Source: Dictyostelium discoideum (taxonomy: Eukaryota). From it: a stretch of 64,000 nucleotides of DNA. The stretch is from positions 2,624,001 through 2,688,000 of the forward strand of contig CM000155.2 in assembly GCA_000004695.1 (NCBI GenBank), written 5' to 3'. The notes under the pieces are model-generated. The model was not told where the DNA came from. It did no database searches and was given only the letters and a program-made list of their open reading frames with translations. Shown one piece after another: positions 41,567 through 51,350 of the stretch. Position numbers and translations under genes: made by a program. Numbering within the stretch: position 1 is the stretch's first letter; every line of letters begins with the position of its first letter.

Positions 41567-44500
41567 TTATCTACAAGTTGGAGTATATTTACAACAAGAA
41601 TCATCTTTACATCCTTTAATATTTGGTTTATAATTTTGATTTTCAATGGTAAAACATGTTTTTCCACCTTGTTTTTCACAATGAAGATCTAAACAATCTA
41701 AACATTTGTATTTTGATGGTAAACATTCTGGAATTCCATTAATAACATGACATTCCATTCCACTCCTACAATGATGTCTATCACATAAATGTGGATTACC
41801 TGTACCTGATTCAGTGTAGTGACCTGTACCACCATCTGTTGATGTTGGTGTACCAGTTGTTACACCAGGACAACCAATAGTTTCCTCTGGAATACCGTCA
41901 CCACCATCATTTGCAATGAAACATCTTTCATGTCCAAAAATCAATAAACAATATTGACCTTCAGGGCAACAATCGCATTCATTAACACCAATAGAATGAT
42001 TAGTAGGAGTTTGAGTTGGAGGAGGAGTTTGAGTTGGGGTTGGGGTTGTACAATTGGTAAGTTTTTCATAATAACAATCCCCAGAATATAAGCACTTTAA
42101 AATAAATAAATAATAAAATAAAATGTTAACCACATAATATTAAAAAAAAAAAAGAAAAGAAATAAAAGAATCACTTACATGATCTTTAGTACATGGGTCA
42201 TTATCATCACATTCTAAATGAGTGAAGAAGCATTTACCATCACCAGTGAAATTACAACCATAATGATTACATGTATCTGGAGTAGTGAAACAACCTCCAT
42301 TAGTACAATTCATACAACCCTACATATTAAAAATAATAATAATAATAATAATAATAATAATAATAATAATAATAATAATAATAATAATAATAATAATAAT
42401 AATAATAATAATAATAATAATAATAATAAAAAAGTCAAAACTAAATTATAATAATTAATAATAAAATATAAATAATAATATCAATAACTTACAGTATATG
42501 TATAATGCTCACAACCATATTCTGTACATACATCTGAAGTACAAGCATCATTGTCATCACATGTTGATTCAGTATAATTGTATAAACAACTTCCATCCGG
42601 ACCACAAACTACAGGTAGACACAAGTTTTCTGTGATACAAGGCTCAATTCCACATTCAATACAATTTTTAATTATTGTATGGGTGCATGTTCCATTTGGA
42701 CCAAGACAAGTTTCAGTTGTACAACTTAATCCATCATTACAATCCAAAGGGACTGTTTTACAAGTATCCCCACTATCTGAGCAAATCTGTTGAAAGCAAA
42801 AATCTGTAGTTGTGCATCCAATCCCATTTGTACAATTTTCACAATTTTGAATTATTTCATTATAACCTATATTTTTATTTTTTTATTGTTAAAACATTAC
42901 TTTTTTAAAAAGCTAAATAAAAAACTATATCTTACATTGTCCATTTATACATGAATCTGTTGTGCAATAATTATAATCATTACAAGTTCTATTGGTTATT
43001 ATACAACTATCACCATTTTCTGAACATCTATATTGGATTATATTTTAAAAAAGAGATTAATATTAATTATTATTATTAAAAATATTATTACAAGAAAATA
43101 AAATCAATAATAATTTACTCAACTGGATTACAAAAATCAACTGTAAGACAACCTCTGTTTGTTTGATTACACTTTACACAGTTTTCAATTGGTACAGCTG
43201 TGCATATACCTATTATATTTTTAAAAATGATAGAGAGAGATTTAATTATAATTAAACTAAAATTATTTCATATTATAAAATTAATTTACATACCATCTGG
43301 TGAATGACATTGATTTAAAGTACATGGTTTATTATCATTACAAGTTTTAGGTATACTGACACATGTTGTTGAACCATCAGTTGGACAAGATAATGGTGAA
43401 CATAAATCTAGTGTTATACAATTAAATGTACCACAATCAGTACAATTCTGTAATATTTCATGTGCACAAGTACCATTGGGACTAATACATCTATCATTTG
43501 AACAGGCATTACCATCATCACATACTTTTGGAACTTCTGTACATTTAGTACCATTATCAGTACATCTATTTTATCAGTAAAAAAGGAAATCAACATTTGT
43601 TTTTTTTTTTTTTTTTTTTTTTTTTTTTTTTTTTTTGTAAAAAATCTTACAATTTTTGGTTACAAAGGTCAGTGGTAATACAAGCAAGTCCAGTACAAGC
43701 AATACAATTGTCCAAAGGAGTATGGACACAACCTAAAGTTTCATCACATCTGTGTTATTATTAAAAAAATGATATTGTTAAACAAATAAAAATTAATTTT
43801 CCTTTTTTAATAAATTATAAAAAAACTTACGTATCTACTGTGCAATCATCAACATCATCACAATCTATTGGAATAAATAAACAATGTCCTGCAAAACACT
43901 AAATAGTTTAGAAATTCCATGTTAATAAAATTATAAAAAAAAGTATTTGTGCCATAAAATTGATTATATAATATTTACAAAATCCTTAGTACAAGTTTTA
44001 TTATCATTACATAGAACTTCAGTTAAACATGATTTTCCATCTGGAGCACATCTATTAAATTTAAATATATAATTAGTAATTTTTAAAAATAGAATTTTTT
44101 AAAATCTTTGAATACAAACACTTTAGGATTACAATCATTAGTGGTAATACAACCAGTACCTGCACAATTGACACATTTTGGTATTGGCGTATGGATACAA
44201 ATACCATCTTGACACTTTTTTATTATATTTTATTTTATTAAATTAGTAACATATTAAAAAAGTTTTTACATATAATCCAAAACTTACAGTATCAGTAGTA
44301 CAATAATCTCTATCATCACAATTCTTATTTGATGATACACAATTTCCTTTAGAATCACATCTAATTAATTAAAAAATTAAAAAAATTATTTTAATTAAAC
44401 AAACAAATTAATAAATTAGAACCTTTGAATAACCATAAACATTATATTACATACTTTTGTGGGAAACATAAATCAGTGGTAATACAAGGTCCATTCGAAC

Positions 44501-49500: not shown

Positions 49501-51350
49501 AAATTTTACTTACTGTATCAACAGTACAAAAATTTAAATCATCACAATTCTTTGGTCTAGTTTCACATGATCTTCCATCAGCTGAACATCTAAAAATTAA
49601 AATTAAATATTAAAATCTAATTGGAAGAAAAATAATAGTAATAATAATATTAAAAATAAAATAATTAATTAATTTAATAATTACACTTGTTCATTACAAT
49701 AATCAGTAGTGATACAACCAATATAGGCACAATTGATACAATCTGGAATTGGATCATGTTGGCAAGCATTTATAGTTGAATTACATGAATCTTGGGTACA
49801 ATGATTTTCATTTACACAATTTTTTGGAACAACTGAACAACCAACACCTGGTGTACAAAGACCAACTGTACACTTTATTATTATTGTTGCGTTGTTATTA
49901 TTTTTATAATAAATAATATTTTAAATATTAAAAAAAGATTAGTAATAGGTGATGTTGGATGATAATAAGAATAATAGAAAAACCTATTACTTACTGGTTC
50001 GGTTGAACTGCAATATGGTGCTGAAGTAACGCAAACATTATTTGAACATTTTGCTGTTATACAGTTGGTTCTATAAATTGGATTATTATCACAATTATTT
50101 GGAGTACAACCTAATATAATTAATTTAATTTTTAAAAATTAGTACCAGTATTATTAATTATCTATAAAAAAAAAAAAAAAAAAAAAAAAAAAAAAAAAAA
50201 AAAAAAAAAAAAAAAAAAAAATTATTTTATATATACTTACAAGAAGTACCATCACCTTCACAGACACCACATTCATCATATCGACTTTCAAAAAAAAAAA
50301 TTAGTAAAGGAGTAATAATAAAACAATAATAATAATAATAATAATACATACGGACACTTGAATGCCAAAGATGTTTCAATTCTTATATGAGATTCTACAG
50401 TGTGACGTTCACAATAAAAGAAATCAAATGGATAATTTTGTCCAGGTGTTAAACCCAATAAATCCAAGTTAACACTTGCACTTGCAATTGTATGAATACC
50501 TCCCAAATCCACAACCAAAATATTATTAATAAATACCCAAACATCATCATCACCTGCAAAATTAAAAACATCACCAGTTTTATATTGAAATTCGGTATGA
50601 GCTTGTAAACCTAAATAATTATTTAAATAAATAAATTTTAATTTTAATTTTAATTCTAATTTTTTTTATTTTTTTAAAAATTTTACTTACAAAAGTGGAA
50701 ATTATGTGGATTTCCAAAAGCGTCACGATAAACTCTTTCATTTGGATAAACTGATTTGTCATCAAAACCTTGACCATCAATTACAAAATAAGAATCATTA
50801 CTGTAGGAATAAATATTTGGATTTGAAAGAGATTGTGTAAGAATGATATCTTTTTGAATTGGAAGATTCACACCTGGAACATTGTGAAACCATGATTGGA
50901 ATGTGGTTTGGTTATGAATTGTTGCACTTGGTGAATTACCACAACCTTTTTAAAAAATAATAATAATAATTATTATTATTATTTTTATAAAAAAATAAAA
51001 AAAAATTAATTATTTTTATTAATTTTGGTTTTATTTTAATTTTTAATGTATACATACAATAAACTGGAGTTCCATCACTACCAAGAACTGATTTTACCAA
51101 ATTTTTTTGGACACCAACGGAACCTGAAGCTTCAAAATCTGGGTTTCTTGATGGAGTATTATCATAAATTAATGCATTTAAAACCAAGGCTAAATAAATA
51201 TATTAAATTAAATTAAATTAATAAAAAAAATTTTGTTTAAAATAAAAAAAAAGTTTAATATTTCTATTTTTAATATTTACTATTTTGTGATTCAGATTTT
51301 AAAATAAAAAATATTGAAAATAATAAAAGCATCAATATTATTTTCTTCAT
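46579..51350 (-). CDS. PA14-domain, Cys-rich secreted protein, copy B (tandem paralogue of copy A, intact), about 18 exons
   Basis: The exons are 51281-51350 (MKKIILMLLLFSIFFILKSESQN), 51057-51188, 50691-50945, 50352-50610 (PA14 core), 50241-50284 (DECGVCEGDGTSC), 49995-50110, 49685-49872, about 49513-49589, 49330-49430, 49011-49157, 48833-48916, 48607-48713, 48449-48533, 48282-48373, 48103-48190, 47675-47936, 47196-47558 and the terminal exon 46579-47100 (..HLCDRYHCKRGMECHVVNGVPECLPSNYKCLDCLDLHCERQG..). All phases are consistent. In several places the intron positions differ from copy A. Confidence 0.7.
47986..48095. repeat. (ATT)n microsatellite inside an intron of psi-like gene B
   Basis: This is a direct read. 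Confidence 0.9.
49227..49323. repeat. (ATT)n microsatellite inside a second intron of psi-like gene B
   Basis: This is a direct read. Confidence 0.9.

What the first reader, a model, noticed from the sequence alone, without database searches (positions are those of the whole stretch)
41567..51350. Tandem pair of ~18-exon PA14 + Cys-rich genes; copy A appears frame-disrupted at its last splice junction
Both genes share the same layout: signal peptide, PA14 domain, about a dozen EGF-like CxxC modules each on its own 44-300-nt exon, and a conserved ~175-aa C-terminal domain. This matches the Dictyostelium psi (PA14) family, which is recorded as clustered and mostly uncharacterised. In copy B the penultimate exon ends ..GAT AAG|GTAAGT in phase 0. 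In copy A the equivalent exon (42178-42319) ends ..GAT CCA T|GTAAGT, in phase 1. Splicing to the conserved terminal exon then leaves the reading frame and stops within about 10 codons, while an unspliced read-through stops at once (TGT AAG TGA). Copy A also has an extra intron (42320-42492, carrying an (ATT)n repeat) at a position where copy B is continuous. So copy A is a young pseudogene, or a C-terminally truncated isoform, or it uses a non-canonical junction.
Basis: partly seen in the sequence, partly recalled or inferred. Interest (0 to 1): 0.7.

Follow-up and report, generated by a model that had tools for sequence, protein, structure and literature searches.

The report
Intact Dictyostelium psiQ/psiR gene pair
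The two neighbouring genes are the already-annotated, intact Dictyostelium discoideum genes psiQ and psiR, and the supposed frame-shift in one copy comes from a one-base misreading of the sequence, so the finding is ordinary.

Summary
The tandem pair is real. Two minus-strand, 18-exon genes encode proteins with a signal peptide, a PA14 domain, Cys-rich repeats and a ~175-aa tail. The headline claim is wrong. The string GAT CCA T|GTAAGT does not exist in the window. Copy A's penultimate exon is 42179-42319 (141 nt, phase 0) and ends AAA GAT CAT|GTAAGT. Base 42178 is the G of the GT donor. Spliced through 17 canonical GT-AG introns, copy A gives an uninterrupted 985-aa ORF identical to D. discoideum AX4 psiQ (DDB_G0293288, Q54C32). 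Copy B gives 996 aa identical to psiR (DDB_G0293286, Q54C31). The last intron lies at the same alignment column and phase in both. psiQ orthologues in D. citrinum and D. firmibasis keep the 141-nt phase-0 exon, the tandem arrangement and all 21 Cys of the terminal exon, which is under purifying selection (dN/dS about 0.3, P about 1e-6 to 6e-8). The central repeats are Dicty_CTDC, not EGF. The tail carries a Cys module of the type found in spore-coat proteins and the eggshell protein CREMP (C-x4-C-x5-C-x8-C). Most likely both are secreted, carbohydrate-binding matrix or signal glycoproteins of late development. PsiR protein has been detected at culmination and fruiting body. Already known; low interest.

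The parts
41567..46007 (-). Copy A = psiQ (DDB_G0293288): 18 exons, 2958-nt CDS, 985 aa, intact
   Evidence: Spliced model has 17 GT-AG introns and no in-frame stop. The translation is identical to XP_629234.1 / Q54C32.
46579..51350 (-). Copy B = psiR (DDB_G0293286): 18 exons, 2991-nt CDS, 996 aa, intact
   Evidence: Spliced model. The translation is identical to XP_629235.1 / Q54C31. PsiR protein was detected by mass spectrometry (PMC12821622).
42179..42319 (-). psiQ exon 17, the disputed exon: 141 nt, starts and ends in phase 0, ends AAA GAT CAT
   Evidence: The orthologous exons in D. citrinum and D. firmibasis are also exactly 141 nt and phase 0. dN/dS is 0.13 and 0.20.
42095..42178 (-). 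psiQ intron 17 (84 nt, GTAAGT...AAAG), phase 0
   Evidence: It lies at the same alignment column and phase as psiR intron 17.
41567..42094 (-). psiQ terminal exon 18 (528 nt including the stop codon; 175 aa): Thr/Pro-rich linker plus Cys modules, including CDRHHCRSGMECHVINGIPEC (C-x4-C-x5-C-x8-C)
   Evidence: Open in frame 0 only. dN/dS is 0.30 and 0.32 against orthologues, and 21 of 21 Cys are conserved. The profile matches the CREMP modules of PDB 9pgb at E 9e-7.
42320..42492 (-). psiQ intron 16 (173 nt) with an (ATT)n microsatellite; absent from psiR
   Evidence: The intron position is conserved in the psiQ orthologues, at the 216|141-nt exon boundary.
44859..45521 (-). psiQ PA14 / fibro-slime domain coding region (aa 110-245, spanning exons 3-6)
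   Evidence: PF07691 E 3e-13. TIGR02148 E 8.5e-39. Coordinates were derived from the exon table.
50257..50808 (-). psiR PA14 / fibro-slime domain coding region (aa 114-248, spanning exons 3-5)
   Evidence: PF07691 E 2.6e-12. TIGR02148 E 3.6e-38. Coordinates were derived from the exon table.
47196..47558 (-). psiR exon 17 (363 nt), ends GAA GAT AAG|GTAAGT in phase 0; it corresponds to the last 216 nt of psiQ exon 16 (the 3' piece that is a separate exon in the orthologues) plus psiQ exon 17
46579..47100 (-). psiR terminal exon 18 (522 nt, 173 aa), homologous to the psiQ terminal exon
38418..40745 (-). Downstream neighbour: NatB_MDM20 gene (synteny anchor)
   Evidence: PF09797 E 1e-94. The same neighbour follows psiQ in D. 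citrinum and D. firmibasis.
52500..53381 (-). Upstream neighbour: Tfb2 (TFIIH p52) gene, large exon (synteny anchor)
   Evidence: PF03849 E 2.2e-76. The same neighbour precedes the psiR-like gene in D. citrinum.

Best explanation
The locus holds two intact, long-established tandem paralogues, psiR (upstream) and psiQ (downstream), from D. discoideum AX4 (the deposited contig is 3.6 Mb; from memory that is the size of chromosome 6). SHOWN: both splice through 17 canonical GT-AG introns into uninterrupted ORFs identical to the deposited proteins. The last intron is phase 0 in both. The pair, the 141-nt penultimate exon and the C-terminal tail are conserved in D. citrinum and D. firmibasis, and the tail is under purifying selection. 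INFERRED MECHANISM: each protein enters the secretory pathway through an N-terminal signal peptide and is released, because there is no transmembrane or GPI-type hydrophobic tail. It has 9-15 N-glycosylation sequons and a Thr/Pro-rich linker that resembles a mucin-type O-glycosylation site. The N-terminal PA14 ('fibro-slime') module would bind carbohydrate. The ~570-aa run of disulfide-bonded Dicty_CTDC repeats (12.4% Cys overall) would form a rigid extended stalk. The C-terminal tail carries a two-disulfide module of the type found in Dictyostelium spore-coat proteins and avian CREMP, which would allow integration or cross-linking into a disulfide-rich extracellular matrix. I think the most likely role is a matrix, spore-coat or stalk-wall associated glycoprotein of late development, possibly also acting as a cell-cell signal as PsiA does. 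The two paralogues would have partly diverged functions.
For: Correct junction and frame. Full gene models. Exact identity to psiQ (Q54C32) and psiR (Q54C31). Last intron at the same column and phase in both copies. Conservation of the read-through 'CTKDH-CLYSGDC' and of the tail in other isolates. Orthologues in D. citrinum (75% identity) and D. firmibasis (67%) with 100% query coverage. Conserved tandem arrangement psiR-like, psiQ-like, NatB_MDM20. Orthologue exon structures with a 141-nt phase-0 penultimate exon. dN/dS for the terminal exon 0.30 (P 1e-6) and 0.32 (P 6e-8), for exon 17 0.13 and 0.20, for the whole gene 0.33 and 0.26, and 21 of 21 Cys kept. Domains PA14, Dicty_CTDC and TIGR02148. 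The only hydrophobic stretch is N-terminal. Tail matches CREMP modules (9pgb, E 9e-7) with identical C-x4-C-x5-C-x8-C spacing. PsiR protein was detected with peak abundance at culmination and fruiting body, in a cluster enriched for spore-coat and matrix proteins. PsiA, PsiF and PsiN are described as matrix-type proteins that act as signals.
Against: I could obtain no transcript or peptide evidence for psiQ itself. It was not found in the proteome supplements, although those files are truncated as stored, and no searchable paper mentions it. Carbohydrate binding, secretion, glycosylation and matrix incorporation are all inferred from domain content. The signal peptide was judged only from hydropathy. 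The AlphaFold model of the tail was unusable (pLDDT 37.5). The CREMP similarity rests largely on cysteine spacing in one clear module per protein and could be convergent. dN/dS between psiQ and psiR is only moderately below 1 (0.55), which fits divergence of function as well as it fits constraint.
Confidence: 0.9

Rival explanations
1. One reading: copy A (psiQ) is a young pseudogene, a C-terminally truncated isoform, or uses a non-canonical last junction, because its penultimate exon ends in phase 1.
For: psiQ protein was not found in the truncated proteome supplements.
Against: The quoted string is absent and the exon is 141 nt, phase 0. The ORF is intact and identical to the deposited psiQ. 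The junction is GT-AG at the same column and phase as in psiR. The same exon length and phase occur in two other species. The terminal exon has dN/dS 0.30-0.32, 21 of 21 Cys conserved and an excess of third-position changes.
Confidence: 0.01
2. psiQ and psiR act mainly as diffusible differentiation signals, like PsiA (the prespore-cell-inducing factor), and not as structural matrix components.
For: They belong to the same family as PsiA (PsiA hit at E 5e-57). They have a signal peptide and no membrane anchor. [quoted passage not shown]
Against: psiQ and psiR are almost twice the length of PsiA (557 aa). They carry about ten CTDC repeats plus a tail with a spore-coat/CREMP-type module that the PsiA cluster did not match. 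PsiR peaks at culmination and fruiting body, together with spore-coat and matrix proteins.
Confidence: 0.25
3. psiQ is structurally intact but largely redundant with psiR or hardly expressed under laboratory conditions. It would be a conserved paralogue used only in particular conditions or cell types.
For: PsiR, but not PsiQ, was found in the stored parts of the life-cycle proteome tables. There is no literature on psiQ.
Against: psiQ has been kept in three species under purifying selection over its whole length (dN/dS 0.26-0.33), so it is expressed and selected somewhere. The supplement files are truncated, so absence there is weak evidence.
Confidence: 0.2

Closest known systems
D. discoideum psiQ (DDB_G0293288, UniProt Q54C32) and psiR (DDB_G0293286, Q54C31)
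   Same: Identical from first to last residue to my spliced translations of copy A (985 aa) and copy B (996 aa).
   Different: Nothing. The window is the reference locus itself.
[quoted passage not shown] 2004 and Yamada et al. 2010, as cited in PMC6830349)
   Same: Secreted PA14-domain protein of the same family. It matches psiQ at E 5e-57 with 43% identity over the N-terminal 29%.
   Different: PsiA is 557 aa. Its precomputed Pfam annotation lists only PA14, and it did not match the psiQ/psiR C-terminal tail profile. A signalling activity has been shown for PsiA only.
Dictyostelium outer spore-coat proteins (SP75 and relatives, 'C4C' modules) and avian CREMP (PDB 9pgb)
   Same: The tail of psiQ/psiR contains a C-x4-C-x5-C-x8-C module with G and P at the CREMP consensus positions. 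The profile matches 9pgb at E 9e-7 and matches a 2346-aa protein with about 36 CREMP-type repeats at E 2e-24.
   Different: There is only one canonical module plus two variants per protein, not long tandem arrays. There are no VWD/C8 domains. No Pfam FOLN or Spore_N hit was obtained. Disulfide connectivity is untested.
Bacterial 'fibro-slime' PA14 proteins (TIGR02148; Fibrobacteres and others)
   Same: The PA14 core of both proteins matches TIGR02148 at E about 1e-38, and bacterial fibro-slime proteins appear among the homologues at 44-50% identity over about 20% of psiQ.
   Different: The similarity covers the PA14 module only. The CTDC repeats and the tail are found in dictyostelids and related amoebozoans.

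Membership tests
psi (prespore-cell-inducing factor) / PA14 family of Dictyostelia | PA14 domain above Pfam's gathering score | tested here: met
   PF07691 scores 50.3 and 47.2 bits against a cut-off of 24. TIGR02148 scores 131.9 and 129.9 bits against a cut-off of 45.
psi (prespore-cell-inducing factor) / PA14 family of Dictyostelia | Dicty_CTDC cysteine repeats following the PA14 domain | tested here: met
   PF00526 scores 35.5 and 47.5 bits against a cut-off of 27, with 4-5 matched stretches.
psi (prespore-cell-inducing factor) / PA14 family of Dictyostelia | Significant sequence similarity to PsiA and other named Psi proteins | tested here: met
   psiA E 5e-57, psiB E 1e-52, psiK E 4.5e-48. 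The models are exactly identical to the entries named psiQ and psiR.
psi (prespore-cell-inducing factor) / PA14 family of Dictyostelia | N-terminal signal peptide (secreted or exposed protein) | tested here: met
   The only Kyte-Doolittle 19-residue window at or above 1.6 starts within residues 1-4, and there is no hydrophobic C-terminus. This is a heuristic; no dedicated signal-peptide predictor was available.
psi (prespore-cell-inducing factor) / PA14 family of Dictyostelia | Prespore-inducing or other signalling activity | not testable with these tools
   This needs a bioassay. It has been reported only for PsiA, PsiF and PsiN.
   Exon 17 is 141 nt and phase 0, and the 985-aa ORF is uninterrupted.
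   Terminal exon dN/dS is 0.30 and 0.32, significantly below 1, and 21 of 21 Cys are conserved.
   The intron reads GTAAGT...AAAG. The orthologous junctions are GT-AG in both other species.
   No EGF family appears at E <= 0.01 in the Pfam scan. The repeats are assigned to Dicty_CTDC.
CREMP / Dictyostelium spore-coat 'C4C' two-disulfide module | C-x4-C-x5-C-x8-C cysteine spacing | tested here: met
   CDRHHCRSGMECHVINGIPEC in psiQ and CDRYHCKRGMECHVVNGVPEC in psiR. The spacing is as defined in PMC3068167 and PMC12723725.
CREMP / Dictyostelium spore-coat 'C4C' two-disulfide module | Significant profile-to-sequence similarity to solved CREMP modules | tested here: met
   9pgb_A at E 9e-7, 32.2 bits, with 3 stretches below the max_evalue of 1 (i-Evalue 0.01-0.15) and a fourth weaker one. 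The match is modest and rests partly on Cys, Gly and Pro positions.
CREMP / Dictyostelium spore-coat 'C4C' two-disulfide module | C1-C3 / C2-C4 disulfide connectivity and beta-hairpin fold | tested here: inconclusive
   The AlphaFold2 model of the tail has mean pLDDT 37.5, although short hairpins are predicted at residues 47-60 and 113-126. No usable structure was obtained.

The most novel reading that the evidence does not exclude
psiQ/psiR (plus a third D. firmibasis paralogue) form a small subfamily, so far seen only in D. discoideum and its close relatives D. citrinum and D. firmibasis. In it, a Psi-type PA14 + CTDC ectodomain is fused to a mucin-like linker and a tail carrying a spore-coat/CREMP-type two-disulfide module. 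An exhaustive profile search of 1.84 billion representative proteins found this tail in only four clusters. If the tail really targets these proteins to the disulfide-cross-linked spore coat or stalk wall, the pair would link the Psi signalling family physically to terminal matrix assembly. In addition, the two paralogues differ at 10 of 22 intron positions, and D. discoideum psiQ has lost one intron that its orthologues retain, which makes the locus a compact case of recent intron turnover.
Probability: 0.3. Interest if true: 0.25.

Novelty: already known. Interest (0 to 1): 0.08.

Why it matters
It matters mainly as a correction. No pseudogenisation, truncated isoform or unusual splicing exists at this locus, so nobody needs to follow it up. 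Both genes are already in the reference annotation as psiQ and psiR. What remains open is ordinary: the biological role of two uncharacterised members of a large family of secreted PA14 proteins implicated in Dictyostelium multicellular development. Two smaller points may help someone working on Dictyostelium matrix proteins or intron evolution: the spore-coat/CREMP-like module in the tail, and the intron turnover between the paralogues.

Tried and rejected
(1) Searching the 175-aa tail alone with the word-indexed protein search returned nothing at E <= 1e-3, even though the parent proteins are in the collection. I treat this as a sensitivity limit of the method. The exhaustive HMMER search later found 4 clusters.
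(2) The exact-sequence look-up of the AX4 psiQ contig found no record. I established neighbours and synteny from window ORFs plus Pfam instead.
(3) The AlphaFold2 prediction of the tail from a 6-sequence alignment gave mean pLDDT 37.5 and pTM 0.23. That is too poor for a fold search, so none was run.
(4) A relaxed Pfam scan of the tail gave only a spurious sub-threshold Herpes_LMP1 hit and no FOLN, EGF or Spore_N hit.
(5) Literature searches for psiQ, psiR and the DDB_G identifiers in main texts found nothing relevant. Only the proteome supplements mention psiR.
(6) dN/dS between psiQ and psiR is of limited use because dS is about 0.5-0.8 and the paralogues are old. I replaced it with orthologue comparisons.
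(7) I considered whether more family members lie in the window. tblastn found no HSP outside 41.5-51.4 kb.
(8) I considered a GPI or transmembrane anchor and rejected it on hydropathy.
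Full report
OBSERVATION. I read the region on the minus strand. The window is about 17-31% G+C, with short AT-rich introns, as in dictyostelids. The critical claim was that copy A's penultimate exon (42178-42319) ends 'GAT CCA T|GTAAGT' in phase 1. 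I tested this mechanically. The string GATCCAT does not occur anywhere in 42100-42400. The sequence is ...TGT ACT AAA GAT CAT|GTAAGTGA. The exon is 42179-42319, which is 141 nt, or 47 codons (GCMNCTNGG...DPCTKDH). Base 42178 is the G of the GT donor. If it is counted as exon, the intron would start TAAGTG. Downstream of the acceptor (TTTTAAAG|TGC, exon start 42094), frame 0 is open for 175 codons up to TAA at 41567, while both other frames are full of stops.

GENE MODELS. I joined exons at hand-identified junctions and checked them by script. Copy A (46007..41567) has 18 exons, 17 GT-AG introns of 60-173 nt and an uninterrupted 2958-nt CDS encoding 985 aa. Copy B (51350..46579) has 18 exons and a 2991-nt CDS encoding 996 aa. 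An exact-sequence look-up shows that both translations are identical from first to last residue to deposited proteins. Copy A is D. discoideum AX4 psiQ (DDB_G0293288, XP_629234.1, Q54C32). Copy B is psiR (DDB_G0293286, XP_629235.1, Q54C31). Both are recorded on a contig of 3,602,379 bp. The reference annotation therefore uses the same junctions and regards both genes as intact.

COMPARISON OF THE TWO COPIES. The proteins are 57.5% identical over 970 aligned residues. Twelve intron positions are shared exactly (same column and phase), including the last intron, which is phase 0 in both. No further family members occur elsewhere in the window.

IS psiQ UNDER SELECTION? Homologues from other D. 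discoideum isolates are 93% and 84% identical to psiQ. They read straight through the disputed junction (CTKDH-CLYSGDC..., or CTYDS-CLYSGDC...) and keep the tail. A full-length search found psiQ orthologues in D. citrinum (P0010, 75% identity) and D. firmibasis (P0011, 67%), both with 100% query coverage, as well as separate psiR orthologues. The duplication therefore predates these species. Their loci show the same order, psiR-like, psiQ-like, NatB_MDM20, with Tfb2 upstream in D. citrinum. The window matches that order: TIP49, Tfb2, psiR, psiQ, NatB_MDM20. I rebuilt the orthologous psiQ exon structures from the genomic loci so that they reproduce the deposited proteins exactly. In both species the penultimate exon is 141 nt and phase 0, and is followed by a GT-AG intron. 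The (ATT)n-intron position of AX4 psiQ is also present in both. Nei-Gojobori estimates for AX4 psiQ against D. citrinum and D. firmibasis are as follows. The terminal exon has dN/dS 0.30 and 0.32 (one-sided Fisher P 1e-6 and 6e-8). Exon 17 has 0.13 and 0.20. The whole gene has 0.33 and 0.26. All 21 Cys of the terminal exon are conserved, and nucleotide differences are concentrated at third codon positions. Between psiQ and psiR, the terminal exon (dN/dS 0.61) behaves like the rest of the gene (0.55). None of this fits a pseudogene or an untranslated tail.

WHAT THE PROTEINS ARE. Pfam finds PA14 (aa ~110-245) and Dicty_CTDC repeats in both, and no EGF family. NCBIfam finds the 'fibro-slime' PA14 subtype TIGR02148 at E about 1e-38. 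Each protein has one hydrophobic segment, at the extreme N-terminus (a signal peptide by hydropathy), and no hydrophobic C-terminus. Cys content is 12.4%, and there are 15 (psiQ) and 9 (psiR) NxS/T sequons. The terminal exon encodes a Thr/Pro-rich linker followed by Cys modules. An exhaustive profile search of 1.84 billion representative proteins found only four clusters: the psiQ/psiR cluster, a third D. firmibasis PA14 paralogue (P0018), a 190-aa fragment (P0130), and P0129. P0129 is a 2346-aa protein of unknown source with about 36 tandem CREMP-type modules, followed by repeated Cys-rich blocks that look VWD/TIL-like by eye; I ran no domain scan on it. [quoted passage not shown] CDRHHCRSGMECHVINGIPEC has exactly the C-x4-C-x5-C-x8-C spacing that defines CREMP modules. 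Those modules were first recognised by their similarity to the Dictyostelium spore-coat protein SP75, and they resemble truncated EGF or follistatin-N modules (PMC3068167 and PMC12723725).

FUNCTION. This is inference. The family's founding member, PsiA, is a secreted prespore-cell-inducing glycoprotein. PsiA, PsiF and PsiN are described as matrix-type proteins recruited as signals (PMC4931340 and PMC6830349). A 2026 life-cycle proteome detected PsiR protein in its cluster 5, which peaks at culmination and fruiting body. That cluster is enriched for proteins with a signal peptide, carbohydrate-binding proteins, spore-coat proteins and matrix proteins (PMC12821622). psiQ was not found there, but the stored supplement files are truncated. 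I therefore propose that both are secreted, glycosylated proteins with a carbohydrate-binding PA14 head and a disulfide-rich stalk, and that they become part of, or signal from, the late-developmental extracellular matrix (spore coat, stalk wall or sheath). The C4C-type tail would mediate integration. A pure PsiA-like diffusible-signal role is the main rival.

VERDICT. The structural description of the pair is largely correct and the psi-family call is right. The frame disruption that gave the finding its interest does not exist. The genes are already annotated, intact and conserved. Novelty: already known. Interest: low.

Noticed in passing
window 42493-42866 (psiQ exon 16); L001 11057-11528; L002 11103-11552: AX4 psiQ exon 16 (374 nt) is split into 158 + 216 nt by a phase-0 intron in the D. 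citrinum and D. firmibasis orthologues. By nucleotide arithmetic, that is about the position where psiR has its intron 16. This points to an intron loss specific to the D. discoideum psiQ lineage.
   Followed up: partly
window 43566-43650 (psiQ intron 12) versus 48714-48832 (psiR intron 11): psiQ and psiR differ at 10 of 22 intron positions. One discordant pair lies only 5 codons apart and both are phase 2 (ITTDLCNQKL|C versus ITTDF|CNVKIC). This could be intron sliding or independent gain and loss. I did not polarise it with outgroups.
   Followed up: no
window 47989-48097, 49225-49324, 42324-42480: There are long trinucleotide (ATT/AAT)n microsatellites inside introns. Two in psiR are perfect (36 and 33 copies, 100% matches). 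One in psiQ has 52 copies at 83% matches. Homopolymer runs of 40-60 nt lie in the psiR-psiQ intergenic region at 46075-46114 and 46206-46265.
   Followed up: no
protein P0008 (1945 aa, D. discoideum assembly ACTFIT): This deposited protein contains two copies of the tail domain (residues 824-983 and 1771-1945). It is evidently a merged gene model of psiR and psiQ in another isolate's annotation.
   Followed up: partly
protein P0004 (D. cf. discoideum psiQ orthologue), alignment columns ~923-930 of A1: An in-frame 8-residue tandem duplication (GTGHYTES-GTGHYTES) lies in the most conserved motif of the tail.
   Followed up: no
(database behaviour): psiQ and psiR are reported in the same '90% identity' cluster although they are only 57.5% identical. 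The tail alone found nothing in the word-indexed search although its parent proteins are in the collection. These are quirks of the tools and not biology.
   Followed up: no
window 351-423, 493-575, 1762-1834 (minus strand): There are three tRNA genes: two tRNA-Ala(AGC) and one tRNA-Leu(UAA).
   Followed up: no
window 30607-34323, 35446-37407, 54243-56001, 57204-58211, 60279-61460: Other genes in the window, identified by Pfam on their long ORFs: a kinesin, a weak sub-threshold B-box zinc-finger match (21.1 bits against a cut-off of 24.1), a TIP49/RuvB-like ATPase split by an intron, ribophorin I, and an ATP_bind_1 (PF03029) protein.
   Followed up: partly
protein P0129 (2346 aa, source unknown): The only non-dictyostelid hit to the psiQ/psiR tail profile is a protein with about 36 tandem CREMP-type modules, followed by repeated Cys-rich blocks that look VWD/TIL-like by eye (no domain scan was run on it). 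This mirrors the published CREMP to Dictyostelium spore-coat similarity.
   Followed up: partly
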